Below are positions 7,496 to 57,416 of a stretch of 64,000 nt of DNA, piece after piece (positions within the stretch are counted from its first letter, which is position 1; the number at the start of each line of letters is the position of its first letter). Both the position numbers and the translations under genes were made by a program. The notes beneath the pieces were generated by a model. That model did no database searches. It worked only from the letters and a program-made list of their open reading frames with translations, and was not told the origin of the DNA. The DNA is from Phycisphaerae bacterium. Lineage in GTDB: Bacteria > Planctomycetota > Phycisphaerae > JAJVII01. The DNA is taken from assembly GCA_022072085.1 (NCBI GenBank), contig JAJVII010000014.1, positions 67,182-131,181 on the forward strand. The letters run 5' to 3'.

Positions 7496-7652
7496 CGGCG
7501 GATTGCACCTTCCGCAGATTTCAGATCACAGGTAGAGTGGAACCGTTGCGTGAAACTTTTCGTCGCCGGCTGCGTCTGATCTTGCATGGACCGGCGGCGG
7601 TGCAAACGTCACTCATACCCAGGCTGGCCCGTGTTGGGGGCGCCGGGGGTAA

Positions 7653-7930
7653 GAATCTATCTCAATTGCCACGCGGGTCGCGACGACGGGTATTGCGGTC
7701 GCGGCCAAGGAGTCGAGGAGGAGTCGATACGGGACGGAGTATCGTCGACGACGAGCGACGCAGGCCGCGACCGCAAGACCCGCCGTCCCGGCGGGTTGGG
7801 CCGCAAAGGGCCCGTCTGCGGCGGCGCCGCTCCTGGACGATACTCAGTCTCGTATCGACTGCGTCGCGGCTTCTTGCATCCGGGCCCTTTGCGACCCAAC
7901 GCGATCCCGTGTGGCAATTGAGATAGATTC
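7653..7930. mobile_element. MITE-like non-autonomous element: 278 bp, 25-bp terminal inverted repeats, flanking TAA direct repeats, internally palindromic
   Basis: TIR-L 7653-7677 gaatctatctcaattgccacgcggg; reverse complement of 7906-7930 is gaatctatctcaattgccacacggg (24/25). TAA at 7650-7652 and 7931-7933. Interior shows further inverted symmetry and a central hairpin cccgccg-tcc-cggcggg (7779-7795). No transposase ORF. Confidence 0.6.
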
Positions 7931-7947
7931 TAAGGCAGGGGGCCTGA

Positions 7948-10900
7948 TTGACGATCCGGGGCGCCCTCATCGCGGGACTGCTGGCCGGCATGGCCGCGAC
8001 GGCCGTGCTGTCGGCTGGCGATGCGCCCATCCCGCCGCCGGCGTCGCCGCTCGCCGAACCCGCCCGCCGAGATGTCGTCGACGCCCTCCTGGCCCGCAGC
8101 CGCCTGCTCGGCGACGCCCGCTTCCAGATTCCCGTCGGCATCTATCGCCAGTATCTCATCGAGACGCAGCAGGCAGCCCCGCCGCCGGCTGACTTGATCC
8201 TCCCAGCGGCCCGATACGACCTGTCGGTGGACAAGGACCGCGCCGTCCGGCTGGCGGTCCGCATCGACCTGCTCGTGCTGGACGCGGACAAGGCCGCCTG
8301 GCTCGGCCTGCTCGACGCCGCGGTCGCGTGGGACGAGGTGAAGATCGACGGGCAGCCGGCGGTCATGCCCGCCCACCTGGGCCTGCTGCGGCTCGCGCCG
8401 CAGAAGGCCGGCGCCCACGTGCTGACGGCGTCGGCCCGGCTGCCGCGGTCGGCGGCCGCCGGCGGTCGGCTGGCGCTGGCGATTCCGTCCAGCGTGCAGA
8501 CGGCCGTTGCGTTCGACTCGCCCGGCGCGTGGGCGGTGTCCGCGGACGACGGTTTCGGCCGCCTGATCGGCGACGCAGCCGGCACGCGCGGGCGGCTGGC
8601 CCTGACGCCGCGGCAGAAGCTCGCGGTCGCCTGGTCGCCGCCGACCTCGGCGATGCAGCGCACGCCGCACTACATGCTCCGCGGCGACGTGGCCTGGAAC
8701 CTCGACGCCGGCGTGCAGCAGGTGACGGCCGACCTGGCGGTGACCATCGCGGCTGCGGCGTCCGACCGCGTCGTGCTGAACCTGCCGGCGGCTGCCGACC
8801 GCGTGAGCGTCACCGGCCCGGACGTGCGGCAGGCCGACGCCCGCGGCGGGCGGGCGACGGTGGACCTCCGCGGGCCGGTGCTGGGGACCACGCGGCTGAG
8901 GGTGGCCTTCGAGATGCCGGCGGCCGGCGACACCCGGACGCTGTCGGGCCTCGGGCTCGCGGACGGGCGGTGGTTCGACGGCACGCTGCTGGTGGGCAAC
9001 TCGGCCGGCGACTGCGAGGTCGTCGCCGACAAGACGGCCGGCCTGGAGGAGATCGCCCTGTCGCAGGCGCCGTCGTCCGCGGCGGCAATCCTCGCGGGCC
9101 CGGCGGTGCTGGCCTACCACATCAACGCCGGGGCCTTCTCGGCGACGGTCGAGAGCCTGACGCTCGGCGAGTTCGCCCTGCGGCAGTCCATCGCCGACCT
9201 GGCCCACTTCGAGGCGTTCGTCTCGCCCGACGGGGCGGCGCTCTGCCGGGCCCGCTACGAAATCCGCAACCGCAGCCAGCAGTTCCTCACGCTCCGCCTG
9301 CCCGCCGGGGCGACGGTGCTGGCGGTGCGGGTGAACGAGAACAGCGTGCCGCTTTCGCCGATCGCCGGCGAGGCCGGCGCCTACCGCGTCCAGCTCGAGC
9401 GTTCGACCGCGTCGGTGATCGGGCTGGTCAGTTTCCCGGTGGACGTCGCCTTCACGCAGCATGTGGAGCTGCCGCGGCCGGCCCGCCACCGGAAGGCGAC
9501 GTTGCGCGTGCCGATGCCGCGGATCGACCTGCCGATCGCCTACGCCTGGTGCGAGCTGTTCCTGCCCGGCGACCTGCGGGTGCGGACCCTCGCCGGGCCG
9601 ATGCGGCGGGTGGAGGAATACTCCAGCCAGACGGCCGGCGCGAGCCTGGACTACGGCCTGGGCACGATGGCGGCGGGCTACACGGCCGCCAACCGCCCGA
9701 CCGCCCCGGAGGTGGTCAGGCGCCCTACTGCCAACATGCCGGCCTTCGACATGGCGATCCACCGCGACCGCGGCGTCGAACTCGTGGCGCCGCCCAATGG
9801 CCCGGTGATGGAAGAGCCCAACGCCCCCCAGGTCGCTCTCCCGTCGCCGCCGGCTGTCACGCAGCCGGACCAGCCGCCGGCTACCGTGCGGGGCCAGCCG
9901 GACGGATACGCCAATCAGCAGGACCATGGCGTCCGGCTGCCCGGCGAATCGGACGTGACGCGCAACCTGGACGCCCCGCCGCCGCCGGTCCAGCCCGGCC
10001 AGCCGACGGGGGGGCCAACGACCCCCGTGCCGTCGGACACGCAGACGTTCACGAACAACAACACGCTGGACGGGCCCGGCGGCATGCAGGGGTCCCAGGC
10101 GCTGCTGGCCCGCAACTACTGGCGGGCGGGCAAGGAGGCCTACGACCGCGGCGATCTGTCCAACGCCACCGAGGCCCTGGGCAACGTGGTTCGGCTGGCC
10201 CCGCAGTCGGCGGAGGCCGACAACGCCCGTCGCCTGCTGGCCAACGCCAAGGTGCTCGAAGGCGGCTTCGAGTATGAGAGCAAGTCGCAGAAGGCGGCCG
10301 GCCTGGCGGTGCAGAAGGAGGCCGCCGTCAGCAACGCCGAGGCGTTCCAGGGCCAGGGGGAACTGCTGGAGCAGGCCAAGCAGGAGCTGCGCGAGGGCAA
10401 GGTCGCGTCAGCCAAGAGCAAGCTCCAGGCGGCCCGGTCGATGGGCCAGAAGCTCCAGACGCAGATGGGCGGCAATGCGGAACTGGATCTGCGCAACAAG
10501 TCGCTGGCGAAGTATTCCGAGGAGATCGAGAAGTCCGAGTCGGACGAAGCCAAGAAGTTGCGGATGAAGTTCGACGACCTTCGACGGTCCGGCCGATCGG
10601 AGGAGGCCTTCAGGACCGGCAAGCATCTGCTGACCCTGAACACCGCCGACGCCGACGAGGTCCGCAAGGAGATGGAAGTCCTGGCGGTGGAGTCGGCGGG
10701 CAAGAAACCGGCCACCCTTCAACAGCAGCCCTTGCCTGTGTTGATGCAGCGACATGCGGAGCCGGTCTACGAGCGGGATCTGTACTCGCCCTCCCGGCCT
10801 GAGGACCGGCGCGTGCTGGCGCCTCCGCCGATGGAGACGAATCTGACGGCCATTCGCCCGTCGCCCGACCAATCCAGCTCCCCGTTGCGAAGCGATGGCC

Positions 10901-13146
10901 GGGACGCTTGGGGCAACCTGCCGCAGCGCGACCGCGAGGATGTCGTGCAGAACCGGCTCGAGGCAGGCACGCCGACCACCCTCCGGTGGGCGCGGGTACA
11001 GGGGGCCGTCGGCGACCTCCTCCGCCAGGCCCGCGAGCAAATCAACCGGCCGGGCGGTGAATTGTCCGTGGACAACTTCACGCAGGCCCGCCAGTGGATC
11101 TCCCAGGCCCAGAACACCCTCAAGGCCAACGAAGATGTCTCGCCCGCGGCCGAGTTCCAGACGCGGATGCGGGAACTGGCTGACATGGAGCGGTTCATCG
11201 ACCAGCGACAGGAGCAATGGATCGCCACGCAGGTCCGCCGGGCGCAGCAGGCTGCCCGTCAGTCACAGCAACTCGACATAGCGGCTCGGACCCGAAGCGG
11301 CCCGGCTGAGGTGCGGACCTACAAGCTCTCCCATGCCGACGCGAGTGAGTTGGCCGACGCTTTGCACAACCTGTACAAGGCCTCTGGCGCGGGGCGGGGA
11401 GGGGCGGCTGCCCCCGAGGTTGTATTCTCGGCTGACCCGCAGACAAACGCTCTGATCGTGCGGGGCGATCCGCAGCAACTGAGGGACGCGGAGATGCTCG
11501 TCAGGCAACTCGACACAACGTCGCGCGCAAGCGCACTGGTCATGAAGGTCTTCCCTCTCAAGAACGCCAAGGCTCAGGATGTGGCGGAGGCGCTGAAGAA
11601 CTCCCTGGCCAAAATGCCGTCGGACGACGCCCGGCGGGTTTCCATCGTTGCCGATTCGAGGACCAATGCCATCGTTCTGAGCGGGCCGACGGAGGAATCC
11701 GCCAGGATTTCGCAACTGATCGACCAACTGGACCGAGCCGATGCCGGCGGGGGCGGGGGCGGCGGGGGTGGCGGGCTGACCTACGCCTACGACGTGCGGG
11801 ATCTGGTCCAGCCGCTGACCGACTTCCGCGTCCCGCTGACCGACCGCGATATCGCGCCCAACGCCCCGGCTGTCCATCCGGGCGGCACGCCGGCTGGCGG
11901 CGAGGGCGACAAGATCCTTGCCGACCAGGTCCGCCGGCTCGTCGGTGACAACGTGGAATTCACTGACGGGAACCTGGTCGTCCGCGGCACGCGGCAGCAG
12001 CAGGAGCAGGTCCGCGAGCTGATCGGCAAGCTCCGCGAGGTCCGCGGCCCGCAGGTGGACGTGAACGCCGGCCGATTCGCCCGCCAGAAGGTCGAGGGCC
12101 TGGTCAGCACCGATTACGACAAGGACGGCGTGACCTCTGACGACGTGAAGTTGGACGCCACTGATGGGTCCCGGTCACAGACTTTCTCGCTGCCCAGGTC
12201 GGGCCTCGTGCCCGCTCAGCCGGGCGAGGCCCGCAACCCCTTCCGCGCCACCTACGGCGTCGGCTTTATCTATGACCGAGATTTCAGCGGCGCGATCGAG
12301 AGCAGTTCGTCCAAGCCCGTGGACCCGCGGCTGAAGGAGTTCATCGACCGCAACTACGAGGCCGAGAGAGTTGGGGTCGTTTCGGGCGTGCGCATCAAAT
12401 GGCGCCGGGGTGAGACGAGTCATATCAGGGGCGGCCCGATAGATTACTGGCCCGTTGAATCTTCCACTGCCGGCGGTTCAACCGGCACGGCCGGCATGAT
12501 GAACATGAACACGGGTCCTCGCGATGAGGCGGCGCGCCTGGGATGGGACGCATACTCGCGGCCAGACCTCTCGAACGTCAGCGGGCTGGTCGAGCGGCTG
12601 CGGGACAACCTCGGCCAGAAGGTCGTGGTCAACAGCTTGAACCTGAACGTCGATCCGCGGGCGGCCCGGTCGCTGGGGGCGGATTTCGACACGCCGGTCA
12701 ACGGCGCCGCCGTCGCGGTCATCGACGAGGCCCAGTTCCGCGCCCTCCGCGAGCTCGACGTCAACGGCAAGGCCCGCGGGTCGGCCGTCGTCGGGCCCAA
12801 CGGGCGGATGCAGGAGACGATCGTCGGCACCGACGCGTCGCTCGCGAACGGCATGGCCGCCAACGAGGCCTACGCCGGCGAGGGCTACAACGATTTCCTC
12901 CTGGGCGACGCTCGCGTGCGGCTGGACCACGCGAAGTATCTGCTCATCGACAACGGCGGCTACCTGACGGTCATGCGGGCCGGGCCGATGCAGCACTGGA
13001 CCGAGCCGCCGGCTGACGTGCGATTTCCCGACGCCCCGCTGGTGATCGAAGTCCCGCGGCAGGGCGAGACCTACCGGCTGGAAAAGACGCTGATGACGCC
13101 GCAGGACGACCCCGCGGTGATCGTGGAATTCGAAATGGAAAACTGA
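7948..13146 (+). CDS. Giant secreted protein (1732 aa): N-terminal domain shared with the downstream paralog, Pro-rich and coiled-coil linkers, two secretin-N-like (GspD/PilQ N-domain-like) repeats, Gly10 tract, novel C-terminal domain
   Basis: TTG start giving a signal-peptide-like N-terminus (MTIRGALIAGLLAGMAATAVLSAGDA). Two consecutive ~65-aa repeats at about 11311-11740 (YKLSHADASELADALHNLY...VVFSADPQTNALIVRGDPQQLRDAEMLVRQLD and MKVFPLKNAKAQDVAEALKNSL...VSIVADSRTNAIVLSGPTEESARISQLIDQLD) match the Secretin_N pattern. No recognisable C-terminal secretin domain. Function unknown. Confidence 0.8.
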   Translation: MTIRGALIAGLLAGMAATAVLSAGDAPIPPPASPLAEPARRDVVDALLARSRLLGDARFQIPVGIYRQYLIETQQAAPPPADLILPAARYDLSVDKDRAVRLAVRIDLLVLDADKAAWLGLLDAAVAWDEVKIDGQPAVMPAHLGLLRLAPQKAGAHVLTASARLPRSAAAGGRLALAIPSSVQTAVAFDSPGAWAVSADDGFGRLIGDAAGTRGRLALTPRQKLAVAWSPPTSAMQRTPHYMLRGDVAWNLDAGVQQVTADLAVTIAAAASDRVVLNLPAAADRVSVTGPDVRQADARGGRATVDLRGPVLGTTRLRVAFEMPAAGDTRTLSGLGLADGRWFDGTLLVGNSAGDCEVVADKTAGLEEIALSQAPSSAAAILAGPAVLAYHINAGAFSATVESLTLGEFALRQSIADLAHFEAFVSPDGAALCRARYEIRNRSQQFLTLRLPAGATVLAVRVNENSVPLSPIAGEAGAYRVQLERSTASVIGLVSFPVDVAFTQHVELPRPARHRKATLRVPMPRIDLPIAYAWCELFLPGDLRVRTLAGPMRRVEEYSSQTAGASLDYGLGTMAAGYTAANRPTAPEVVRRPTANMPAFDMAIHRDRGVELVAPPNGPVMEEPNAPQVALPSPPAVTQPDQPPATVRGQPDGYANQQDHGVRLPGESDVTRNLDAPPPPVQPGQPTGGPTTPVPSDTQTFTNNNTLDGPGGMQGSQALLARNYWRAGKEAYDRGDLSNATEALGNVVRLAPQSAEADNARRLLANAKVLEGGFEYESKSQKAAGLAVQKEAAVSNAEAFQGQGELLEQAKQELREGKVASAKSKLQAARSMGQKLQTQMGGNAELDLRNKSLAKYSEEIEKSESDEAKKLRMKFDDLRRSGRSEEAFRTGKHLLTLNTADADEVRKEMEVLAVESAGKKPATLQQQPLPVLMQRHAEPVYERDLYSPSRPEDRRVLAPPPMETNLTAIRPSPDQSSSPLRSDGRDAWGNLPQRDREDVVQNRLEAGTPTTLRWARVQGAVGDLLRQAREQINRPGGELSVDNFTQARQWISQAQNTLKANEDVSPAAEFQTRMRELADMERFIDQRQEQWIATQVRRAQQAARQSQQLDIAARTRSGPAEVRTYKLSHADASELADALHNLYKASGAGRGGAAAPEVVFSADPQTNALIVRGDPQQLRDAEMLVRQLDTTSRASALVMKVFPLKNAKAQDVAEALKNSLAKMPSDDARRVSIVADSRTNAIVLSGPTEESARISQLIDQLDRADAGGGGGGGGGGLTYAYDVRDLVQPLTDFRVPLTDRDIAPNAPAVHPGGTPAGGEGDKILADQVRRLVGDNVEFTDGNLVVRGTRQQQEQVRELIGKLREVRGPQVDVNAGRFARQKVEGLVSTDYDKDGVTSDDVKLDATDGSRSQTFSLPRSGLVPAQPGEARNPFRATYGVGFIYDRDFSGAIESSSSKPVDPRLKEFIDRNYEAERVGVVSGVRIKWRRGETSHIRGGPIDYWPVESSTAGGSTGTAGMMNMNTGPRDEAARLGWDAYSRPDLSNVSGLVERLRDNLGQKVVVNSLNLNVDPRAARSLGADFDTPVNGAAVAVIDEAQFRALRELDVNGKARGSAVVGPNGRMQETIVGTDASLANGMAANEAYAGEGYNDFLLGDARVRLDHAKYLLIDNGGYLTVMRAGPMQHWTEPPADVRFPDAPLVIEVPRQGETYRLEKTLMTPQDDPAVIVEFEMEN

Positions 13147-13191
13147 AATCGGCTCCAACCCAACTTTAACTCTTCAACGAAAGGGAACGAG

Positions 13192-15225
13192 ATGAACAGG
13201 ACGCGCGTATGGGTGGTGGTGCTGGCGGCTGCGCTGCTGGCCGGTCCGATGCTGGCGGCGGCCCAGCCGGCGGCCCCGGCGGCGGACAAGTCCGTCAACG
13301 GCCAGGTGATTCTGAGCTGGGACGAGTTCGTCAAGATCACCGGCTACGACCCGGTGAAGGGGTCGCAGTCGCTGACGATCCCCTGGCCGGAGGTCGAGCG
13401 GCTGCTGGGCGTGGAACTCAAGGGCAAGGTCGGCATGGACAAGACGACGGTCGACCTGCCGTGGCAGGACTTCAAGGCCCTGCTGGAGTGGTCGATCAAG
13501 CGGCAGCAGGGCGACGCCGCCCCGCCGCCGACCGACTACGTCATCACCGCCAGCGAATACGCCGGCACGCTGGGCGACCAGAGTGCCAAGCTGACCCGCA
13601 AGCTGACGGTGAACGTGCTGCGGCAGGCGGGCTGGAAGCGGATTCCCATCCTGCCGCTGGGCGTCGCGGTGACAGCAAGCAAGCTGCCCGACGGCGTGTT
13701 CCTCAACAGCACCGGCAGCGGCTACGAGCTGCTGACGACCAAGAGCGGCGAACTGGCGGTGACGGTCGATTTCACCGCCCGCGTCGTGACCGACGCCGGG
13801 GTCAGCCGCATGAGCGTGCCGGCTGTCCAGGCGGCCAGCAGCGTGCTGGACCTGACGATCGACAGCGACAAGGTCGACGCCAAGGTCCCCGAGGGGCAGG
13901 CCGTCGTGACCAAGGCGGCTGACGGCAAGACGCACGTGGCCGCGGCGCTGCCCGCGGGCGCGTCGCTGGACGTCTGGTGGGAGCGCGCGGTGGCCAAGGT
14001 GGCGGCCGCGCCGACGCGGCTCTACGCCGAGACGCGGACGCTGGTCGCGGTCTCCGAGGGCATCCTGCTCTGCCAGGAAACGGTGAACTACTCGATCCTG
14101 CACACTGCGGTGCGCGACCTCAAGCTCACCGTGCCCCAGGGCGTCGCGGTGCTCGAAGTGCTCGGCCGAAACATCATGGACTGGCGCGTCGAGAAGGACG
14201 GCACGATGACCGTCGCCCTGCGCGGCGAGGTGATCGGCGGCTATGACCTGCGGATCAGCTACGAGCTGGCTGCCGACAAGGAGGTGACCGTGCCGGTCAT
14301 CCGGTCGGTCGGCGCCGAACGGGAGAAGGGCTACGTCGGCGTGGTCGCGTTGACCAACGTCGAGATCGACGCCCCCAAGGTCGAGGGCGCCGCGGCCATC
14401 GACGTCAAGCAGCTCCCGGCTGAGATCGTTGCGATGACCAAGCAGCCGCTGCTGCTGGCGTTCCGCTACGTCGGCGAGAAGTTCGCGATCCCGCTGGAGA
14501 TCAAGAGGCACGGCGAGGTGACCGTGCTGGTGACGATCGCCGACAGCGGGCTGTTCACGATCATGCAACTGGCGGACGGCCGGCGGATGACCCGCGCGAT
14601 CTACACCGTCCGCAACAACCGCAACCAGTTCCTGCGGGTGGCCATGCCCGCCGGCGCCGACATCTGGTCGGTCGCGGTCAGCGGCAACCCGGTCACGCCG
14701 GCCAAGGACAGCGACGGCAAGGTGCTGATCCCGATGATCCGCTCAGCCGTCGGGGCCGAACTGAGCAGTTTCCCGGTCGAGGTGGTCTACGTCGAGACGC
14801 CGGCCAAGCCCGCGCCGGCCAAGGGGACCATGCACGTCGATCTGCCCACGCTGGACTGCCCGACGATGCACGTGATGGCGACCTACTACGCGCCGGCTGA
14901 GGGCAAGTACGGGCGGCCGGCCGTCTTCGGGTCCGGCACCTCGGGCTTCACGGGCACGCTGCACCTGGTCGAGGACTTCGCGACGATGATGACCGACGCG
15001 AACACGCCGCGGGTCGTCCAGGAGCAAGCCGCCCAGCAGGCCCAGCAGATGCAGGAAACCTTCAGCCGGCGGACCGAGGACGACGCCCGGGCCGCCGGCG
15101 TGACGCCGATCCGGGTCAGCCTGCCGATCGGCGGGCGGCAGTTCAGGCTCGAGAAGATCCTCGCCCTCGTCGGCGACAAGCTCGAGTTCGACGTCGAGTA
15201 TCGCGACTGGGACGCAGCCAAGTAG
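13192..15225 (+). CDS. Secreted protein (677 aa), paralog of the N-terminal ~600 aa of the upstream giant protein
   Basis: Signal peptide MNRTRVWVVVLAAALLAGPMLAAAQPAAPAA. Collinear similarity to the upstream protein (e.g. RAIYTVRNNRNQFLRVAMPAGADIWSVAVSGNPVTP vs RARYEIRNRSQQFLTLRLPAGATVLAVRVNENSVPLSP). 45-bp gap to the upstream gene. Intrinsic terminator downstream. Confidence 0.85.
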   Translation: MNRTRVWVVVLAAALLAGPMLAAAQPAAPAADKSVNGQVILSWDEFVKITGYDPVKGSQSLTIPWPEVERLLGVELKGKVGMDKTTVDLPWQDFKALLEWSIKRQQGDAAPPPTDYVITASEYAGTLGDQSAKLTRKLTVNVLRQAGWKRIPILPLGVAVTASKLPDGVFLNSTGSGYELLTTKSGELAVTVDFTARVVTDAGVSRMSVPAVQAASSVLDLTIDSDKVDAKVPEGQAVVTKAADGKTHVAAALPAGASLDVWWERAVAKVAAAPTRLYAETRTLVAVSEGILLCQETVNYSILHTAVRDLKLTVPQGVAVLEVLGRNIMDWRVEKDGTMTVALRGEVIGGYDLRISYELAADKEVTVPVIRSVGAEREKGYVGVVALTNVEIDAPKVEGAAAIDVKQLPAEIVAMTKQPLLLAFRYVGEKFAIPLEIKRHGEVTVLVTIADSGLFTIMQLADGRRMTRAIYTVRNNRNQFLRVAMPAGADIWSVAVSGNPVTPAKDSDGKVLIPMIRSAVGAELSSFPVEVVYVETPAKPAPAKGTMHVDLPTLDCPTMHVMATYYAPAEGKYGRPAVFGSGTSGFTGTLHLVEDFATMMTDANTPRVVQEQAAQQAQQMQETFSRRTEDDARAAGVTPIRVSLPIGGRQFRLEKILALVGDKLEFDVEYRDWDAAK

Positions 15226-15291: not shown

Positions 15292-15337
15292 GCGACCCGC
15301 CCGTCCGCGGCCATCCGCCGGCGGGCGGTCGCTTTTT
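15292..15337 (+). terminator. Intrinsic (Rho-independent) terminator candidate for the plus-strand gene ending at 15225
   Basis: Stem gcgacc(c)gcccg (15292-15303) pairs with cgggcggtcgc (15322-15332) with a 1-nt bulge, followed by TTTTT (15333-15337). Confidence 0.5.
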
Positions 15338-15343
15338 CTGCGC

Positions 15344-17965
15344 TCACTTCACCGCGCAGGTGGCCTCGGCGGCGTAGACCAGCCGGGCCCGGATCAGGCG
15401 GCGGCTCATGCTGTCGCCCATGTAGGCGTAGCGGTCGGTCGCGGCGACGCCCACCAGCCAGGCCAGCGGAATGTCCGGCTGGCTCAGCGACTTGTCGCCG
15501 CTGTCGGGCCCGCGGTTGTCGGCGTTGCCGTAGCCGCCGAAGTGCGTCAGGTCGTTGCCGTTGGTGTCCAGGACGCCGACGCGGAATCGGCCGAGGTCCG
15601 GATACCACACCCGCCCGAAGTCGTCCACGTCAAACCGCGTGTTCTCGCAACTGCAATAGATCAGTCCGACGTGGCTGATGCCCATGCGGATCCATTGGGC
15701 GCCGGTCACCTGAACCGGTTGCAGGCGGCCGCCGGCGTAGTAGGCCGCGTCCACAGTCTTGAGCGACGGGTCCAGTTTGGGCTCGCCCTTGTAGGGGTCG
15801 GTCGCCGGGTGATAGAGCCGCGCGCCGAAGTGAACCATCCCGCCCCTGGGGCTGAACTTGACGATGCTGCCGTACATCGTGCAGACCTGGTCCTTCACCG
15901 CGTCGTCCTTCAGATAGGTCTTGCCCAACTCCACCTTGCCGACGGTGGCGGCGAATTCGGGTGGATAGACCTGGTCGGCCGGCTTGACCTGTTCGGCGAT
16001 GTAGATGTTGCCCTGCGGGTCGAACCTCGGGCCGATGGCCGCGTCCGACACCTTCCAGATGATCGGCGTGTCGCTGACGCGGTCGCCGTCGGGCGTGTAC
16101 TCGCGCAGCATCTTGCAGGGCCTGCCGCCCATCGCTCCGGGCTCGAGCACGAACAGGTGGCCGTCGTGCCGCACGCCCAGGAAGTGCGTCATGAAGACCA
16201 TGCTCACCGGAACGAAGCTCGCGTTGGCCGACCAACTGTTGCCGGGAGCGCCGTCGCTCTTGGCCGTGCGATGGTCGGGCTTGGCCCAGGCGACGGGCTT
16301 GCCGTTGCGATCCCACTTGTAGAAGTAGCAGGGCCAGCCCAGCCCGTAGAGGCAGCCGTCGGGCGCCGGCACGATGCAGACGCCCGCGTTCACCTTCGTC
16401 CCCGTGCTCACGTCCTCGATCTTTCCGTCGCCTTCGCTAAATCGCATCCACCGGCCGGGGCCGATGCGGGCGTAAATCTCCGGCGACGCCCTGAAGCGGT
16501 CCACGCTCATGTCGACGAACCCGCACGCCCCGAACCGCTCCTTGTTCACCTTCGTCGCCGTCAGCCTGTCGCCGCCGTCCTCGATCCGCAGCAGTGTTCC
16601 CCCGTCGGAGCCCATCCAGACGACGGCCGGCTTGGCAGACGCGTCCAACGCCATCAGCCACGGCTGCGCGGGGTCGCCGTCGCGCTCGACGCGCAGCTTG
16701 GCCAACTCCTTGTGATCCTTCCAGCCATCCAGCTTGACCAGTTCGATCGCCCCGGCCGCCAGCAGCCGCGTGACGTAGACCACCCCGCTGCCGGGTTCGA
16801 CGGCCACGTGGTCCGGGCGCTCGATCGGAAACTGGCCGACCAGCTTGCCGTCGGATTCGTTGATCGCCACGACGCGGTTGTTGCCGCAGTCGGCCACCAG
16901 CAGATGTCCATGTCCATCAGTCGCCAGCCCGCGCGGATCGTCGGAGAGGTGCGTGTCGTCGTTGCCGGCCTGCTCCGGCTCGCCGAACAGCGGCGTCGCC
17001 GGCCCGCGATCGGGCAGCGGGACGCGGTAGACGCTTGCGAAGCTCAGCCGCTGCGGCTTCTTGTCCGGACGGACCTGGCCCATGCCGGTGACGTAGGCGC
17101 TCCTGCCGTCGGCCGAGATGCAGACGAACGGGCGGCGGAAGAACGGCCGCGTCATCTTCACCAGCGGTGGTCCGACGTCCGAGCCCCAGGGCGGCGTGCC
17201 CTGGCTGTCCAGGGCCGACAGGCATAGCGGGCCGCGGCCGTCGTACCCGCCGACCGGGCGGACCAGCACGCCGTCGCGTGTGACGGCCATGCCGCTCTTG
17301 CGAGCCGACTCGGAGCCATAGAAACTCCGCCTGGACAGGTCCTTGATCAGCGGTACGCTCTCGCCGCCGACATCGACGACCCCCAGCCCCTCCAGCCGCT
17401 GCTTGCCAAGGCCGGCCGGGAACGGCGCGACCGTGCTGCGGTAGCGTCCGTCGCGGTCCAGCGCGACGATGCGCTCGCCGGTCCAGTTGGCCACCGCCGC
17501 GCCAACGCCTGCGCAGACGTAGAGCGTGCCGTCCGGGCCGACGGCCAGCGAGTGGATGTTGCCGAAGTTCTGCGGGTCCTCGGCGATGATGCTGTCATAC
17601 TTCGCGCCCAGGCCCAGCGCGACGCGCACGGTGAAGGGCCCTGCGCCGGCCGGCTTGCCGTAGTCGGCCAGGCCGTCCCATCGGATCGATTGCGCCAGGC
17701 TGTCTGGCTTCAGCGGCGGCGGGGGGTTCTTGCCCAGCACGCCGGCGACGAGGTGGCGGACGACGCGGCCGTCGGCCGACTCGATGGAGACGGCCACGTC
17801 CGTTGCGCGATCGACCGCGAAGTCGATGCGGATGGCATCGCCCTCGCGCGTCGCGGCGGGGGGACGAGTGAAGGAGGGCGCCTTTGCCGCCGCTGCTGCC
17901 GCGGGCAGCACGGCTGCGGCCGCCAGGAGACGCCACGCGGCGCCGAATGCAGTCCTTTGAATCAT
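15344..17965 (-). CDS. Secreted NHL-repeat beta-propeller protein
   Basis: Signal peptide MIQRTAFGAAWRLLAAAAVLPAAAAAA from ATG at 17965; the track ORF extends in-frame to 18040 across a palindrome. NHL-like repeat HLLVADCGNNRVVAINESDGKLVGQF. Paralogous to the gene at 50415-52976, sharing the C-terminal tail ...RARLVYAAEATCAVK. Confidence 0.8.
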   Translation of the reverse strand: MIQRTAFGAAWRLLAAAAVLPAAAAAAKAPSFTRPPAATREGDAIRIDFAVDRATDVAVSIESADGRVVRHLVAGVLGKNPPPPLKPDSLAQSIRWDGLADYGKPAGAGPFTVRVALGLGAKYDSIIAEDPQNFGNIHSLAVGPDGTLYVCAGVGAAVANWTGERIVALDRDGRYRSTVAPFPAGLGKQRLEGLGVVDVGGESVPLIKDLSRRSFYGSESARKSGMAVTRDGVLVRPVGGYDGRGPLCLSALDSQGTPPWGSDVGPPLVKMTRPFFRRPFVCISADGRSAYVTGMGQVRPDKKPQRLSFASVYRVPLPDRGPATPLFGEPEQAGNDDTHLSDDPRGLATDGHGHLLVADCGNNRVVAINESDGKLVGQFPIERPDHVAVEPGSGVVYVTRLLAAGAIELVKLDGWKDHKELAKLRVERDGDPAQPWLMALDASAKPAVVWMGSDGGTLLRIEDGGDRLTATKVNKERFGACGFVDMSVDRFRASPEIYARIGPGRWMRFSEGDGKIEDVSTGTKVNAGVCIVPAPDGCLYGLGWPCYFYKWDRNGKPVAWAKPDHRTAKSDGAPGNSWSANASFVPVSMVFMTHFLGVRHDGHLFVLEPGAMGGRPCKMLREYTPDGDRVSDTPIIWKVSDAAIGPRFDPQGNIYIAEQVKPADQVYPPEFAATVGKVELGKTYLKDDAVKDQVCTMYGSIVKFSPRGGMVHFGARLYHPATDPYKGEPKLDPSLKTVDAAYYAGGRLQPVQVTGAQWIRMGISHVGLIYCSCENTRFDVDDFGRVWYPDLGRFRVGVLDTNGNDLTHFGGYGNADNRGPDSGDKSLSQPDIPLAWLVGVAATDRYAYMGDSMSRRLIRARLVYAAEATCAVK

Positions 17966-18022
17966 TGCGCTGGCCCTCGGCTTTGGAGTGTGTGATTCGC
18001 CGACATCGCCGGTCCGTTGCGG

Positions 18023-18038
18023 GCGGAATCGATTCCGC
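18023..18038. promoter_or_regulatory. Perfect 16-bp palindrome, candidate operator upstream of the NHL-propeller gene
   Basis: gcggaatcgattccgc equals its own reverse complement. Located 58-73 bp upstream of the ATG at 17965 on the minus strand. Confidence 0.3.
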
Positions 18039-18161
18039 ACCAGCCGTCCATCATACCGGACAGGGCGGACGAGACCTAACAGTCGCTGTCACAATAGCTC
18101 GCAAGCCCGAACCGAAGTCCGGGCTTGCGGCAGATGAAGTCCTATCTTGTTCGTCGATGGG

Positions 18162-22866: not shown

Positions 22867-25065
22867 TCAGCCGCCCGGGCCGCCGGTCGGCCGGTTCCAC
22901 AGTCCGAACAGCCGCACCGACGGCGGCAGGACGAGCATGTCGGCCAGCAGGGCGCAGACGATCGTCAGGCCGCTGAGCGTGCCGAACAGCGCGACCGGCC
23001 GAAACTCCGACATGGCCAGCACGCCGAACCCGGCCGCCGCGACCAGCGAGGTGAACACCGCCGCCCGGCCGAACGTGCCGAAGCTCAGCGCTGCCGCCTC
23101 GACCGGAGGCTGGCCGCCCAGCCGATAGGTCCGGTAGCGCGCCAGGAAGTGGATCGTGTTGTCGACGGCCAGGCCGATCGCAATGCTGGCGATCATCACG
23201 GTCGCCGGGTCCAGCGGCACGCCGATCAGCGCCATCATCGAGAAGGTTCCGACGATCGGCAGCAGGTTGGGCAACACCGAGGCCGCGAACGCCCGCACCG
23301 AGCGATAGAGCACGCCGATCAGCAGGAGCACCACCGCGGTCGCCAGCGGGAAACTCCGCAACTGCGTCGCGATCAGGGCGATCTCGGCGTCCTTCATCAA
23401 CGGGCCGATGCCCGTCACCTTCCATCGCATCGACGCCCCCAGCCGCCGCCCAGCCGACTCGCTGATCCGGTCGACGACCGGGTAGAAATCCGACGCCGCC
23501 ATCGCGTTGGTCAGCACCGAGAGGCGATAGTGCTGCCCGTCGGTGTCGCGCCTCGCCAGCCGGGCCTCCATGCCGTCCAGCAGTTTGGCCAACTCGGGCG
23601 TCATGCCCGCCCCGCCCAGCCAGCCGGAGAGCTTCACCTTCGCACGCATCTTCTCCAGCCGCCCGGCGTGGTCGATGCGCACGACGTGCGGGCAGTCGGC
23701 CAGGTCGGACTCGACGCGGTCCAGCGCCGCGAGCGTTGCCGCTGCGTCCTCCGGCGGGCAGCCGACGTCCAGTTCGACGGTGTAGAACCCGGTCAGCCGC
23801 TCGCCGATGAAGCGGTAGTCCTTGACGACGCGAGAATTCTTCGGGAAGTACGCCAGCACATTGGACTCGCCGCGCAGCCGCAGGGCCATGACCGTGCTGA
23901 ACGCCAGCACCGCCAAGGCCGCGATGGTCACCGGCCAGGGCCGCCGGGCGACGAACGCCGCCACCGGCGCGCTCCAATGCTGCCGCACGCGGCGGCGCTT
24001 CGACTTCGACGGGCGCACCTGCCCTAGCAGCCCGGGCACGATCAGCAGGTCGCACACACAGCCGATGCAGATCCCGATCGCCGCGAACAGTCCCGTCTCC
24101 TGCACCGGGCTCATGTGCGAGATCAGCAGCGAGCCGAACCCGACGGCCGTCGTGACGCTGGTCAGCGTCGCCGGCGCCAGCAGCGTGCGATAGGTGTGCC
24201 GCAGTGAACGCTCGCGGCCCATGCCCCGGCGCATCGACGCCTGGTATTCCAGTGCCAGGTGGATGCCGTTGGACAGGGCCATCACGAAAAGCAGCGTCGG
24301 CAGCGCCGCAGTGATCATGTTGATCGTCCGCCCGCTGAGCACCAGGATGCCCATCGTCCAGAGCACCGTCACCCCGACCGCCGCCATGACGACGGCCATC
24401 CCGCGGAAGCTGCGCAGGCAGAGCAGCAGCGTCCCGGCCGCCAGGGCGCCGGCGATCAACAGGAACTCCGTAAGTGCTGAGATGGCTGCCCGGTTCAGTC
24501 TGGCCGTCATGACCGGCAGGCCGGCCAGGTGATACTCCTGCTGTTTGCCGCAGACCTCGGCCAGCGCCGATTCGATCTGGCCGACCACGCGCTGCCGCCG
24601 CCCCGGGTCGGCGAACTTCGGCAGCCGCACCACCAGCCCGACCGCGTGCCCGCCGGGCCCCAGCAGGTAGCCGCGCAGGAACTCGTCGGTCCGCAGGGCC
24701 TCTCGCCCGGCGGGTCCCAGCTTGGCCGTCGCGATGATCCGCGGCACGGAGAGCACGTCGTCCACGCCGTCGATCGCCGCCAGCCGGTCGGCCAGCTTCT
24801 GCTGAAACACCAGCGCGTCAGCCGACAGCGGGTCTTCCATCGGCAGGCCGATGACGACGAACTCCTCGCTCCCGTAGCGGGCCAGGAACTGCCGGTATTG
24901 CGCGTAATCCTCGCCGGTTCGGTCGAGCCAGACTTCGATGGAGTTGTCGATGTGCGTGGACGGCAGCAGCAGGGCGGGGATGACGGCGCTGCACAGGCAG
25001 AGGATCGCCAGCAGCCGGCAGTGTCGCGACAGGAACTCAACCACGCGATTCATCGGCGCTGACAC
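22867..25065 (-). CDS. MMPL/RND-superfamily (SSD-containing) membrane exporter
   Basis: 732 aa with two 5-6 TM bundles separated by soluble domains (...AALPTLLFVMALSNGIHLALEY... and ...IASIAIGLAVDNTIHFLARY...), typical of MMPL/HpnN-type lipid exporters. Starts 22 bp after the PKS stop on the same strand. Confidence 0.75.
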   Translation of the reverse strand: MSAPMNRVVEFLSRHCRLLAILCLCSAVIPALLLPSTHIDNSIEVWLDRTGEDYAQYRQFLARYGSEEFVVIGLPMEDPLSADALVFQQKLADRLAAIDGVDDVLSVPRIIATAKLGPAGREALRTDEFLRGYLLGPGGHAVGLVVRLPKFADPGRRQRVVGQIESALAEVCGKQQEYHLAGLPVMTARLNRAAISALTEFLLIAGALAAGTLLLCLRSFRGMAVVMAAVGVTVLWTMGILVLSGRTINMITAALPTLLFVMALSNGIHLALEYQASMRRGMGRERSLRHTYRTLLAPATLTSVTTAVGFGSLLISHMSPVQETGLFAAIGICIGCVCDLLIVPGLLGQVRPSKSKRRRVRQHWSAPVAAFVARRPWPVTIAALAVLAFSTVMALRLRGESNVLAYFPKNSRVVKDYRFIGERLTGFYTVELDVGCPPEDAAATLAALDRVESDLADCPHVVRIDHAGRLEKMRAKVKLSGWLGGAGMTPELAKLLDGMEARLARRDTDGQHYRLSVLTNAMAASDFYPVVDRISESAGRRLGASMRWKVTGIGPLMKDAEIALIATQLRSFPLATAVVLLLIGVLYRSVRAFAASVLPNLLPIVGTFSMMALIGVPLDPATVMIASIAIGLAVDNTIHFLARYRTYRLGGQPPVEAAALSFGTFGRAAVFTSLVAAAGFGVLAMSEFRPVALFGTLSGLTIVCALLADMLVLPPSVRLFGLWNRPTGGPGG

Positions 25066-25087: not shown

Positions 25088-28000
25088 CTACCTCAGGCCG
25101 ACCGTTTCGAAAGCCGCCGTGATCCCCGCTGCCAGGGCCGTCACGTGCGGCGGGCGCAGCAGGGTGAAGTGCCCGCCCGGCAGCGTCGCGACGCGGACCG
25201 CAGCCGACGACGCGTCCGACCATTCGCCGTCGCGGTCGCCGCCGCCGCCGGCCAACGGGTCGGCCGCCCGCCACTGAAACACCGGGGCTGCCAGCCGGAT
25301 CACGCCGGGCGAGGCCGCCAGGTCGCCGTGATGCTCCAGCAGTTCCAGCCGCCGGCTCATCAGGTCGGCCGGCATGCCCGCCGGCAGCATCCTGCGGTCG
25401 GTGTACCACTGCACGAGCCTCGCGGCCCGCTCGGCCCGCGGGTGCGAACGCAACGACTCATCCAACTCAACGACCTCGCGCACCGCCTGCGCGGTCATGC
25501 TGTTGTCCGCACTTCCGGCGTTAAGCAGGTCGGCGATCGCGTCGGCCGAGTTGCGGGCGATACCCTCGCGCAGCGCCGCGCTGGGGCGGCTGGTGTCGAT
25601 CAGGCCGACGAAGCCTACCGCCCGCCCGCTCCGCTCCAGCGCCTGGGCCACCTTGATCGCGAAGACCCCGCCGATCGACCAGCCGGTCAGGCAGCAGGGG
25701 CTCGCCGGCTGCATCGCGCGGATGCGGGCGGCGTAGTCGTCGGCCAGCGCGTCCAGCGTCGCGTGCTCGATGTCCGTGCGGCCGCCGTCGGGCGCCCGGC
25801 AGTCGATGCCGTAGACCGTCCGCCCGGGCGTCAGGGCGTCGGCCAGGGCGCGGTAGACCGCCACCCCGCCGCCGCCGGCGTGGATGCAGAACAGCGGCGT
25901 CCGCTCGCCGTGGGACCGCAACGTCACGACGGCGGGCGAATCGGCTGCGGCCGGGGCGGCGGCGGACCGCTCGGTGGCTGCCGACTCCGGCGACAGTCGG
26001 CCCAGGATCAGCCGCGAGAGCTGTGACACGCTCGGCCCGCTCATCACCTCCATCGTCTGAAGGTGCACGCCCAGGCTGCTCTCGATCCAGTTGCCCAGCT
26101 CCACGGCCATCAGCGAGTCCAGCCCCAGGTCGGTCAGCGAGCGGTCGATGTCGAGCTGCTCGGCGGACTGGCCGAGCACGCCGGCGATCTGCGTCCGCAT
26201 CGCCGCCAGCAGCAGCGCGGGGCGATCGGCCTGGTCGGCCGCAAGTACCGCACGGCGGAGTTCTTCCGACTCGCCCGAGGTAGCCGGTCCGCTGTCGGAG
26301 TCGGCTGGGCAGACGAACTCGAACTTGGTCGCCCCGAGGCCCTTCTCGCGCATCCGGGCGCCGTATCTAGCCCAGTCCATGTTGCAGACGGTCAAGTGGG
26401 TCGCGTCGGCGGACATGCAGCGGCCCAGCGTGTCCAATGCCTGCGTCGGGGTGAAACCGGCCAGACCGAATGACTTGAACCGCTCGGCCACTTCCGGCGC
26501 CGCGGCGACTGTGCCGACCTCGGCGAGATAGCCCCAGTTGATCGACAGGCCGGGCAGTCCGCGGGCCCGGCGACGGGCGGCCAGCGAATCGAGCACCGCG
26601 TTGGCTGTGGTGTAGTTGGCCTGGCCGGCTGTCCCGACCACAGTCGAGATCGACGAGAAGAGCACGAAGTGGTCGAGCCGCCGGTCGGCCGTCATGCGGT
26701 GCAGCAGCATCGCACCGACGACCTTGGGGCGATAGACCTTGAGGAACGTCGCCTCGTCCAGGTCTGCCATCAGAGTGTCGTCGAGCACCATAGCCGCGTG
26801 GAACACGCCGCGCAGCGTCGCGCCCGGCGCCTCGGCCGCCGCCAGGGCGCGGGCCACGTCGTCGGGCTTTGTCACGTCGCCGAGGACCTCGACGACGGTT
26901 GCGCCGCGGGCGCGCATGGCCTCGATCTGATCGCGCGACCGCCGGTCCGGCGGGCCCTTGCGCCCCATCAGCACGACGTGCCGCGTGCCGCGCTCGACCA
27001 GCCAGCCGGCCAGCAGCAGCCCGAACCCGCCGAACCCGCCGGTGACCACGCAGGCGTCGCCCGGGGCCAACTGCGGGTGCGACTGCGATCCGACGACGGC
27101 GTTCAGCCGGTGGTCGCGCAGCGTCAGCACGAGCTTGCCGATGTGGCTGCCCCGGCTCAGGGTGGCCAGCGCTGCCGAGGCGGAGGCCATCGTCATCGGG
27201 CGATAGGGCAGCGGGCGGTAATCGCCGGCGGCGATGCGGTCGGCGACGGCGGCGTTGAGCCGGCGCACCAGGTCGGCCCGCGTCCGCATCGCCAAGTCCA
27301 GGTCGATCGAGAATACCGCGATGTTCTTGCGGAACGGGGCCAGGCCGATCGGCCGGTCGGCGTAGATGTCACGCTTGCCGATCTCGACGAATCGGCCGAA
27401 CGGGGCGAGCACCGCCAGCCCCTTGGCGATGGCTTCGCCCGCGAGGCTGTTGAGCACGACGTCGACGCCCGTGCCGCAGGTGGCGTCCATCACGTCGGCC
27501 GCCCAGCCGAGCGTGCGCGAGTCCAGCACGTGCCGCACGCCCAGGCGGCGGAGGAACTCACGCTTCTCCGGCGTGCCGGCGGTCGCGAGGACCTCCGCGC
27601 CTACGGAGCGGGCGATCTGCACCGCCGCCAGGCCGACGCCGCCGGCGGCCGAGTGAATCAGCACCTTCTCGCCGCGGCCGAGGCCGGCCTTGTCGATCAG
27701 CGCGTGATGGGCGGTCATGAAGGTGACCGGCATCGTTGCGGCGGCGACCATGGCGATGTCGTCGGGCGCGGGCATCAGGGCGTGCGCGGGCAGCAGGACG
27801 TGCGTTGCGAAGCAGCCCGGCCCAGCCGCCATGACGCGGTCGCCGACGCGCACGCCCGCGACCTGCGGGCCGACGCGGCGGACGACGCCCGCGCATTCGA
27901 TGCCCAGGCCCAGCTCGCCCGGCGCCAGGCCCGGGTAGATGCCCAGCACCTTCATCACGTCGGAGAAGTTGATGCCGGCGGCGTGGACCTCGACCTCGAC

Positions 28001-52976: not shown

Positions 52977-53078
52977 GAAATCACTCCTTGCAGGGCAGGA
53001 CTCGACCTGTTCACGTTCATTGATACCACGAATCGAGATCGGCGGCCACCGGTGGGGCCGGCCGATCTGTGGCGCAGC

Positions 53079-53783: not shown

Positions 53784-53805
53784 GGCTTGCTCCGTGGCGA
53801 CCGGG

Positions 53806-57195: not shown

Positions 57196-57321
57196 GGTGG
57201 CCCTCCCCGGATGTCTGTTGTGCGAGTCTTGGCAAAGAAAGGCGCCCGGCCGACCGGTCCGGCGGGGGACAACCTGATTATCCATCCGGGCTGGCCGCCG
57301 TCAAGCGCCGCTGCGCGGGCG

Positions 57322-57350
57322 TTGGCGGATGACGCGGGAAAGTGTAGAAT
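57322..57350 (+). promoter_or_regulatory. Sigma-70-like promoter candidate upstream of top6B (TTGGCG-N17-TAGAAT)
   Basis: -35-like TTGGCG (57322-57327), 17-nt spacer, -10-like TAGAAT (57345-57350) with TG two nt upstream. About 65 nt upstream of the top6B ATG. Confidence 0.4.
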
Positions 57351-57416
57351 AGCACGCAGCGGACGGGCAGGGACGCTCGCCGCAATCTCCGGGTTCCGTT
57401 TAGGCCGCCCATCCCC

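What the first reader, a model, noticed from the sequence alone, without database searches (positions are those of the whole stretch)
7948..15225. Tandem paralogous giant secreted proteins; the first carries secretin-N-like repeats but no recognisable secretin pore domain
The 1732-aa protein and the 677-aa protein immediately downstream share a ~600-aa N-terminal domain. The larger one adds Pro-rich and coiled-coil linkers, then two tandem ~65-aa repeats matching the Secretin_N pattern, a Gly10 tract and a C-terminal domain I cannot assign. Secretin N-domains without the canonical C-terminal secretin barrel are unusual. This could be a highly divergent envelope-spanning secretin or a different periplasmic scaffold.
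Basis: partly seen in the sequence, partly recalled or inferred. Interest (0 to 1): 0.6.

Follow-up and report, generated by a model that had tools for sequence, protein, structure and literature searches.

The report
Barrel-less secretin-derived envelope protein pair
Two neighbouring genes of a Phycisphaerae bacterium encode paralogous secreted beta-sandwich proteins, and the larger one has picked up the ring-forming N-domains of a secretin but not its pore, so it is probably a periplasmic scaffold of an undescribed but widespread two-gene module, not a hidden secretion channel.

Summary
Gene A (7948-13146, 1732 aa) and gene B (13192-15225, 677 aa) are paralogs (26% identity over ~500 aa, E 4e-24). 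A carries two strong Secretin_N domains (E 8e-37), a Gly10 tract, Pro-rich linkers and an unassigned C-terminus.

New findings:
- A has a third, cryptic N-domain. It is homologous to the last N-domain of genuine planctomycetal TPR-secretins.
- The C-terminal ~140 aa fold into a compact alpha/beta domain that matched nothing tested in PDB or Pfam. It also occurs in Lentisphaerae/Verrucomicrobiota relatives that lack secretin N-domains.
- A looks like a B-type beta-sandwich module split by a ~1100-aa insert before a terminal ~38-aa hairpin motif that both share.
- The long-plus-short pair is a conserved two-gene cassette in Planctomycetota, Lentisphaerae/Verrucomicrobiota and Myxococcota. It has no conserved neighbours and no T2SS or pilus genes nearby.
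- Some relatives keep short fossils of the secretin C-terminal end.

Most likely this is a periplasmic A-B scaffold whose grafted N1-N3 array oligomerises or docks onto a real secretin. The function is inferred, not shown. Interest is moderate.

The parts
7948..13146 (+). Gene A: 1732-aa long paralog (BIFFINMI_01035-identical)
   Evidence: ORF and translation. GC3 0.895. 100% match to P0001.
7948..8019 (+). A aa 1-24: signal-peptide-like N-terminus (MTIRGALIAGLLAGMAATAVLSA|GD), no lipobox Cys
   Evidence: Only hydrophobic segment in the protein. By inspection; no predictor was run.
8035..9717 (+). A aa ~30-590: beta-sandwich module paralogous to protein B
   Evidence: BLASTP to B, E 4e-24. B-family HMM hits A 73-565, E 5e-35. 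41-50% identity among family members.
9718..10092 (+). A aa 591-715: Pro-rich low-complexity linker 1
   Evidence: Composition scan. Not conserved in homologs.
10093..10737 (+). A aa 716-930: conserved TPR-like helical region (starts LLARNYWRAGKEAY)
   Evidence: Conserved block q716-920. Homologs have Pfam TPR hits at the aligned position. A itself has no significant TPR hit.
10738..11307 (+). A aa 931-1120: Pro-rich linker 2 followed by a charged/Q-rich, probably helical stretch
   Evidence: Composition only. Not modelled.
11308..11526 (+). A aa 1121-1193: secretin N-domain 1
11539..11739 (+). A aa 1198-1264: secretin N-domain 2
   Evidence: Best Pfam Secretin_N stretch, 1200-1265. AF2 model.
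11746..11775 (+). A aa 1267-1276: Gly10 tract
   Evidence: Regex on the translation.
11776..12045 (+). A aa 1277-1366: third, degenerate N-domain ('YDVRDL...NGNLVV...LREVRGPQV') with an inserted loop
   Evidence: AF2 beta-alpha-beta-beta-alpha unit with insertion. Third Pfam Secretin_N stretch. hhalign probability 96.7%, E 4e-10 to the last N-domain of the true secretin P0174.
12046..12576 (+). A aa 1367-1543: poorly conserved linker predicted disordered, with a small conserved FIDRNY motif (aa ~1465-1471)
   Evidence: pLDDT 28-45. Variable in the alignment. No secretin fossil in this member (E 0.59).
12577..12999 (+). A aa 1544-1684: conserved C-domain (compact alpha/beta, no match found in PDB or Pfam)
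   Evidence: pLDDT >90. 42-54% identity in the family. 185 clusters at E<=1e-30, and the domain is C-terminal in the 150 listed. No PDB, Pfam or secretin similarity.
13027..13143 (+). A aa 1694-1732: terminal beta-hairpin motif shared with B (P..I.VP..G....EK.L)
   Evidence: hhalign A-family vs B-family E 3.7e-5. B HMM positions 632-663 hit A 1696-1727, but only at E 0.3, which is not significant on its own. The same motif ends the Myxococcota long paralogs. Low pLDDT when modelled without the N-module.
13192..15225 (+). Gene B: 677-aa short paralog (BIFFINMI_01036-identical)
   Evidence: ORF. GC3 0.944. 230 homologs of ~670 aa at 55-62% identity with no Pfam domain.
13537..14991 (+). B aa 116-600: consecutive beta-sandwich domains
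15097..15213 (+). B aa 636-674: terminal hairpin motif, confidently packed in the model
   Evidence: Strands 649-658 and 665-671 with pLDDT ~90. hhalign to the A terminus.
15315..15333 (+). Terminator-like GC hairpin plus T-run after gene B. There is none between A and B (45-nt gap).
   Evidence: Consensus scan only. The number of sites is not above shuffles.

Best explanation
A and B are the long and short paralogs of a conserved, uncharacterised two-gene envelope module.

Both are Sec-exported, soluble, all-beta proteins built from consecutive beta-sandwich domains. The fold class is that of the M1-aminopeptidase N-domain and ribophorin I. Each is closed by a C-terminal beta-hairpin.

In the long paralog, the link between the last sandwich and that hairpin has expanded into a ~1100-aa arm. 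The arm holds a TPR-like region, helical and Pro-rich spacers, and a conserved C-domain.

In Planctomycetota this arm additionally acquired the periplasmic N-domain array of a planctomycetal TPR-secretin. In this protein there are three N-domains, collinear with GspD N1-N3. The pore-forming secretin barrel is absent. In some relatives only short fossils of its C-terminal end remain.

Inferred mechanism: A and B associate through their paralogous sandwich modules in the periplasm or at the inner face of the outer membrane. The N1-N3 array either oligomerises into stacked rings, as secretin N-domains do, or docks onto the N-domain rings of a genuine secretin encoded elsewhere. This would tether the A-B scaffold to an envelope machine. 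The protein itself does not form an outer-membrane channel.

Shown: paralogy, domain identities, absence of a detectable barrel, gene-pair conservation, and secretin ancestry of the N3-like module.

Inferred: export, A-B interaction, ring formation or docking, and periplasmic location.
For: Domain identities and absence of a barrel:
- Paralogy.
- Secretin_N three times.
- Three beta-alpha-beta-beta-alpha units in the AF2 model.
- The N3-like module is homologous to the last N-domain of true secretins P0174 and P0175, which carry PF00263.
- No barrel by Pfam, PDB profile or hhalign.
- The C-domain is compact with pLDDT >90. It is present without a detectable N3-like or Pfam Secretin_N domain in loci L055-L058.

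Secretin ancestry:
- Secretin C-terminal fossils in ~25 of 163 family members, with phmmer E down to 6e-17.

Gene-pair conservation:
- The gene pair is adjacent in the window and in L001-L006.
- It is also adjacent in almost every species-representative locus with upstream DNA, across three phyla (two loci have a ~2-kb gap and one lacks a detectable partner).
- No conserved neighbours. No T2SS or T4P genes in the window.

Fold of B and export:
- Only N-terminal hydrophobic segments, no HExxH motif, no lipobox.

Precedent:
- N1-N3 arrays form stacked periplasmic rings, and separate Secretin_N-only polypeptides can interact with a pore subunit (PMC8134430).
Against: - There is no experimental or co-occurrence evidence for an A-B interaction, ring formation or a secretin partner.
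- The rest of the genome could not be inspected for a genuine secretin.
- Many family members lack Pfam-detectable Secretin_N or STN domains apart from the N3-like module. Lentisphaerae and Myxococcota relatives lack them all. Whatever the core function is, it therefore does not need the secretin part.
- The C-domain has no assigned fold or function.
- The AF2 model is a monomer, so an oligomer-dependent membrane structure would not be seen.
- The idea that the hairpin of A packs back on its own N-module rests only on analogy with B and on low pLDDT in the fragment model.
Confidence: 0.5

Rival explanations
1. A is a highly divergent but functional secretin. The C-terminal ~450 aa (disordered linker, C-domain and hairpin) oligomerise into an outer-membrane channel that monomer-based tools cannot recognise.
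For: - The C-domain sits where a secretin barrel would sit, directly after an N3-type domain.
- Relatives carry true secretin C-terminal fragments immediately upstream of the C-domain.
- By eye, 'QKVxVxSxNxN...LGVxF' at the start of the C-domain and 'VPxxIxVPRVGxLVK' at the end resemble the first strand and the VPxLxxIPxxGxLF motif of secretins. BLASTP paired the first with the P0174 barrel start at E 0.59.
- One of 35 members hits PF00263 at E 0.071.
Against: - hhalign probability is 0.3%, and there are no PDB secretin hits at E<=10.
- The region between N3 and the C-domain is unconserved and predicted disordered.
- The C-domain occurs without N-domains in other phyla.
- The terminal motif is also found in B and in Myxococcota long paralogs that have nothing else secretin-like, so it belongs to the sandwich module.
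- There are no pilotin, T2SS or T4P neighbours.
Confidence: 0.1
2. A and B are cell-surface or extracellular proteins, such as an adhesin, an S-layer-like coat or a polysaccharide-binding scaffold. The N-domains and TPR would act as generic protein-interaction modules with no link to secretion machines.
For: - The window is rich in glycoside hydrolases.
Against: - No known surface-anchoring or sorting signal was seen: no PEP-CTERM, no lipobox and no C-terminal transmembrane segment.
- The neighbourhood is not conserved, so the CAZyme context is incidental.
- Secretin N-domains and the N3-like module are periplasmic modules in every characterised case (PMC8134430).
Confidence: 0.2
3. Gene A is a decaying secretin fusion, that is, a pseudogenised or functionless relic. 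Only B would matter.
For: - Barrel loss, fossil fragments in relatives, and highly variable middle regions.
- B is more conserved (55-62%) than A (40-50%).
Against: - A has an intact 1732-codon ORF with strong coding codon bias.
- Its N-module, TPR, N3-like module and C-domain are conserved across 185 clusters at 50% identity.
- The long paralog is retained next to B in three phyla.
Confidence: 0.05

Closest known systems
   Same: The N3-like module of A is homologous to their last N-domain (hhalign 96.7%, E 4e-10). This includes the first residues after it (LREVRGPQVDV vs LREQRAIQIAV). There is a TPR region upstream. Other family members retain their C-terminal 'TTVSVPDGGTLLIGGQ...GVPILSKIPIL' segment.
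   Different: A has no PF00263 domain or barrel. It has a ~560-aa N-terminal beta-sandwich module, an unrelated C-domain and a terminal hairpin that secretins lack. It is always paired with a short paralog.
T2SS secretin GspD/XcpQ/ExeD periplasmic N1-N3 array
   Different: No N0 or STN domain is detected in this member. There is no secretin domain or S-domain, and no gsp neighbours.
Mitochondrial T2SS GspDN1-3 (Secretin_N-only polypeptides; PMC8134430)
   Same: Secretin N-domains are encoded apart from any pore domain. GspDN1 interacts with the pore subunit in yeast two-hybrid, which is a precedent for N-domains acting in trans.
   Different: These are small single-domain eukaryotic proteins produced by gene splitting. 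A is a 1732-aa bacterial mosaic in which the N-domains are grafted into an unrelated protein.
N-terminal beta-sandwich domain of M1 aminopeptidases / LTA4 hydrolase, OST1 (ribophorin I), TAF2 and the ITIH VIT domain
   Different: Sequence identity is 8-13%. There is no catalytic domain, no HExxH motif and no Pfam Peptidase_M1 hit. The resemblance is of fold only.

Membership tests
Secretin superfamily (GspD/PilQ/InvG/pIV) | C-terminal secretin beta-barrel domain (Pfam PF00263) forming the gated outer-membrane pore | tested here: not met
Secretin superfamily (GspD/PilQ/InvG/pIV) | Periplasmic N-domains of the Secretin_N / ring-building type upstream of the pore domain | tested here: met
Secretin superfamily (GspD/PilQ/InvG/pIV) | Genomic association with T2SS, T4P, T3SS or filamentous-phage partner genes or a pilotin | tested here: not met
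   None in the 64-kb window or around homologs. No conserved neighbours. The rest of the genome was not available.
Secretin superfamily (GspD/PilQ/InvG/pIV) | Detergent-resistant 12-15-mer inserted in the outer membrane | not testable with these tools
   Needs biochemistry or cryo-EM.
Long/short beta-sandwich paralog pair (unnamed; B family = P0054-P0173, A family = P0001-P0045) | Short paralog of ~670 aa with the B-type module and terminal hairpin, encoded immediately downstream of a long paralog with the same module | tested here: met
   Window arrangement. Six fetched contexts. 80 species-representative loci.
Long/short beta-sandwich paralog pair (unnamed; B family = P0054-P0173, A family = P0001-P0045) | Long paralog ends with the same hairpin motif, separated from its sandwich module by a long insert | tested here: met
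   hhalign E 3.7e-5. The B HMM also places it at A 1696-1727, at a non-significant E 0.3. Motif seen in Myxococcota long paralogs by inspection and weak HMM hits.
M1 aminopeptidase family | Catalytic thermolysin-like domain with HExxH...E zinc site | tested here: not met
   No Pfam Peptidase_M1 hit. No HExxH motif in A or B. Only the N-domain fold matches.
BatD / DUF4139-type periplasmic beta-sandwich proteins (considered from memory) | Match to the Pfam or NCBIfam models of those families | tested here: not met
   No such hit for A, B or 60 B-family members at E<=1.

The most novel reading that the evidence does not exclude
The long/short paralog pair is the core of a previously unrecognised envelope machine shared by Planctomycetota, Lentisphaerae/Verrucomicrobiota and Myxococcota. 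In Planctomycetota it has captured the ring-forming half of a secretin. This would make a barrel-less periplasmic ring that plugs into, gates or replaces part of a secretin-based channel, so it would be a new way of re-using secretin parts.
Probability: 0.2. Interest if true: 0.75.

Novelty: new variant of a known kind. Interest (0 to 1): 0.5.

Why it matters
Secretins are defined by their pore. Here a sizeable, conserved family (about 185 clusters at 50% identity) keeps the secretin N-domain array, and in some members fragments of the barrel end, but has no pore. The array is embedded in an unrelated beta-sandwich protein that always travels with a short paralog.

If the N-array still forms rings or binds a real secretin, this would be a natural example of modular re-use of secretin parts. 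It would also give a handle on the poorly understood planctomycetal envelope.

Independently of the secretin part, the gene pair is an unannotated module conserved across three phyla, with confident structure models and no known function. That makes it a concrete target for knockout, localisation and pull-down experiments in cultivable Phycisphaerae, Lentisphaerae or Nannocystis.

Tried and rejected
- **Terminal hairpin as a copy of the secretin 'VPxLxxIPxxGxLF' end.** The spacing matches by eye. However, phmmer of secretin domains against the B family gives nothing (best E 0.02, at another position). Some members have both a true fossil and the hairpin. The motif also exists in Myxococcota proteins with no secretin parts. 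Treated as unproven.
- **Functional link to the upstream nuoJ-N genes.** Rejected, because the neighbours differ in every other locus.
- **A large DUF748 protein as partner.** Adjacent in only two of six contexts, so not conserved.
- **Third word-indexed homolog search with alignment A3.** It returned only three proteins and was largely wasted, although it did surface the true secretins P0174 and P0175.
- **First alignment, A1.** It misplaced the query fragment on the N-module and was discarded.
- **AFDB fold libraries.** Unavailable, so B and the C-domain were compared with PDB only.
- **Upstream long hairpin as a repeated element.** The arm 21-mer occurs only at the two arms in the window. 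It occurs twice in metagenomes without flanking similarity or an inverted partner, which is about the chance level.
- **Literature.** Searches for planctomycetal secretins, crateriform structures and PF03958 found no description of this family.


Full report
**What is there.**
The window is ~70% G+C. The + strand carries a 1732-codon ORF (7948-13146, TTG start) and, 45 nt later, a 677-codon ORF (13192-15225). Both show the third-position G+C typical of real genes here, 0.895 and 0.944. Both are 100% identical to hypothetical proteins BIFFINMI_01035 and _01036 of a Phycisphaerae MAG. Upstream lie nuoJ, L, M and N. Downstream lies a convergent NHL-repeat gene. Each protein has a single hydrophobic segment, at the N-terminus, that looks like a Sec signal peptide. 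Neither has a lipobox Cys or an HExxH motif (by inspection, no predictor run).

- A and B align at 26% identity over ~500 residues, E 4e-24.
- A has two Secretin_N domains, Pfam E 8.4e-37 against a 28-bit cut-off. PDB sequence hits to T2SS secretin N-domains reach E 6e-13.
- The Gly10 tract is at aa 1267-1276, and the Pro-rich stretches are confirmed.
- No PF00263 hit was found. NCBIfam secretin models match only over the N-domain part and far below their cut-offs.

**Anatomy of A.**
BLAST mapping of 44 full-length relatives and a trimmed alignment give these conserved blocks:
- an N-module, aa ~30-590, at 41-50% identity
- a TPR-like block, aa 716-920, where homologs have Pfam TPR hits at the aligned place
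- a module 'YDVRDL...NGxLVV..T..Q..V..LL..LR.ARGPQV', aa ~1277-1375
- a C-domain, aa 1544-1684, at 42-54% identity
- a terminal ~38-aa motif

The middle of the protein is variable. By the precomputed Pfam annotation, only about 8 of 44 relatives carry Secretin_N and 4 carry STN.

AlphaFold2 on aa 1115-1732 with a 35-sequence alignment gave mean pLDDT 71. It gives three beta-alpha-beta-beta-alpha units (aa 1121-1193, 1198-1264, and 1277-1366 with an inserted loop). These are followed by ~175 residues at pLDDT 28-45, then a compact alpha/beta domain at pLDDT >90 with strands of only 3-11 residues, and a low-confidence tail.

**Is there a hidden secretin barrel? No evidence for one.**
- A family profile finds no secretin among PDB sequences even at E<=10.
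- hhalign of the C-terminal region against the secretin domains of four secretins found here gives probability 0.3%.
- Scanning 35 family C-termini against Pfam gives Secretin_N in 11 and PF00263 in one, at E 0.071.
- Foldseek aligns 250-264 columns with ExeD, GspD, EpsD and PulD. That length fits the N1-N3 array and not the barrel.
- The C-domain also occurs in the long paralogs of Lentisphaerae/Verrucomicrobiota. There, neither my N3-like HMM nor Pfam finds a secretin N-domain. Its origin is therefore independent of the secretin graft.

**Secretin ancestry of the graft.**
The third N-domain is homologous to the last N-domain of P0174 and P0175 (hhalign probability 96.7%, E 4e-10). These are genuine planctomycetal secretins with TPR repeats and PF00263. 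The similarity runs up to the first residues of their barrel (LREVRGPQVDV vs LREQRAIQIAV).

About 25 of 163 family members carry unmistakable pieces of the secretin C-terminal end ('TTVSVPDGGTLLIGGQ...GVPILSKIPILNRAF'). phmmer E reaches 6e-17 and a fossil HMM reaches E 3e-34. The pieces sit either just before the C-domain or just after the N-module. The window's protein has none (E 0.59). The second position is unexplained.

**What B is.**
B belongs to a very uniform family of ~670 aa at 55-62% identity, with 230 hits and no Pfam or NCBIfam match. The AF2 model has pLDDT 84. It shows a signal peptide, a small alpha/beta part, consecutive beta-sandwiches (aa 116-600), a Q-rich helix (613-635) and a confidently placed terminal hairpin (649-671).

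**A as a split B-type module.**
- The terminal motif of the A family aligns with the terminal hairpin of the B family (hhalign E 3.7e-5).
- The B HMM hits A at 73-565 (profile positions 104-598). It also hits 1696-1727 (profile positions 632-663), though that second hit is weak, at E 0.3.
- The ~1100-aa arm therefore sits where B has only a helix and linker.
- The hairpin is confident in B but not in the A fragment modelled without its N-module. This fits the hairpin packing onto a sandwich module, but that is an inference.

**Conservation of the pair.**
- In six fetched contexts the A-type gene is followed directly by a B-type gene, while the neighbours differ.
- A scan of one genome per species with the B profile returned 145 relatives, of which 80 loci were kept.
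- My HMM scan of their ORFs gave the following. In Planctomycetota, the gene upstream of B has the N-module, the N3-like module and the C-domain wherever upstream DNA exists, apart from L049. In two loci, L044 and L047, a ~2-kb gap separates the two genes. In Lentisphaerae/Verrucomicrobiota it has the N-module and the C-domain only. In Myxococcota (Nannocystaceae, Polyangia) it is an 850-1170-aa long paralog with the N-module and a weak TPR, and neither of the other two.
- The Myxococcota long paralog still ends in the same hairpin motif, 'VTASSLSVVIPAAGxAxRYQHLLL'.
- No other gene is conserved nearby.
- An exhaustive search of 1.84 billion representatives found 185 clusters at E<=1e-30, and in the 150 best hits listed the C-domain lies at the extreme C-terminus.

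**Most likely mechanism.**
It is shown that A is not a secretin by the family's defining feature. It is also shown that A carries a bona fide, secretin-derived N1-N3-type array inside a conserved two-paralog module.

Secretin N1-N3 arrays oligomerise into stacked periplasmic rings. Separate Secretin_N-only polypeptides (mitochondrial GspDN1) can bind a pore subunit in trans (PMC8134430). From this I infer that A and B form a periplasmic scaffold through their sandwich modules. I also infer that in Planctomycetota the grafted N-array either self-assembles into rings or docks onto a genuine secretin.

The core function of the pair cannot depend on the secretin part, because two other phyla lack it. 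That core function remains unassigned. I put about 0.5 on this overall reading. The structural and evolutionary statements deserve much more than that, and the functional ones less.

**Rivals.**
- A cryptic oligomeric pore formed by the C-domain: 0.1.
- A surface adhesin or coat: 0.2.
- A decaying relic: 0.05. This is contradicted by the intact ORF, the codon bias and the conservation.

**Novelty.**
No paper in the held library describes this family. Source annotations read 'hypothetical', 'secretin N-terminal domain-containing' or 'tetratricopeptide repeat protein'. I file it as a new variant of a known kind, namely a secretin-derived but barrel-less protein. The underlying gene pair itself has no known counterpart.

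**Limits.**
- No AFDB libraries were available.
- There were no further structure jobs to test hairpin docking, the A-B complex or oligomers.
- The rest of the genome was not available to look for a partner secretin.
- Signal peptides and coiled coils were judged by eye or by composition.

Noticed in passing
window 7652-7937 (+), intergenic between nuoN (ends 7495) and the TTG start of gene A (7948): A ~286-nt near-perfect long hairpin, with arms AGAATCTATCTCAATTGCCACGCGGG / CCCGTGTGGCAATTGAGATAGATTCT and further nested complementary stretches. RNA MFE is -194 kcal/mol, z -10.5 against shuffles. There is no Rfam family. The arm occurs nowhere else in the window. It occurs twice in metagenomes without flanking similarity or a partner arm, about the chance level. 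It could be a transcript-stabilising or terminating structure, a regulatory element for gene A, or a relic palindromic insertion.
   Followed up: partly
family-A relatives, e.g. P0009 aa 628-667, P0003 579-604, P0230 726-756, P0195 406-474, P0250 27-82, P0002 1093-1112: Short but highly significant copies of the secretin C-terminal end (TTVSVPDGGTLLIGGQ...GVPILSKIPILNRAF) sit at two preferred positions. One is just after the N-terminal sandwich module and before the TPR. The other is just before the C-domain. Each is followed by an 'RNY(Y/W)' motif. The position after the N-module is not explained by a simple 'secretin lost its barrel' scenario.
   Followed up: partly
window 25088-33622 (-) and 22867-25065 (-): A 2844-aa single-module, fully reducing type I polyketide synthase (KS-AT-DH-MT-ER-KR-ACP-TE) lies next to an MMPL/RND-type transporter. 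This looks like a lipid or polyketide export pair.
   Followed up: no
window 57348-59525 (+) and 59648-60772 (+): Topoisomerase VI subunits B and A (Topo-VIb transducer; TP6A_N plus Toprim) are encoded in tandem in this bacterial genome.
   Followed up: no
window 15344-18040 (-) and 50415-53078 (-): Two ~890-aa proteins have the same weak domain signature (FlgD_ig-like plus NHL repeat) and are probably paralogs. One is convergent with gene B.
   Followed up: no
L001 864-4139 (-) and L006 4123-7698 (-): A ~1100-1190-aa DUF748 (AsmA-like) protein lies near or directly divergent from the A-type gene in two of six contexts. It is not seen in the window or in the other loci.
   Followed up: partly
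window 53806-57300 (-) and 53079-53837 (-): A 1164-aa ORF with coding-type codon bias but no Pfam hit lies directly upstream of an ankyrin-repeat protein.
   Followed up: no
L005 12635-14673: In one metagenomic relative the B-type gene is called as two ORFs (322 + 358 aa) that together cover the B profile. This is probably a frameshift or an assembly error.
   Followed up: no
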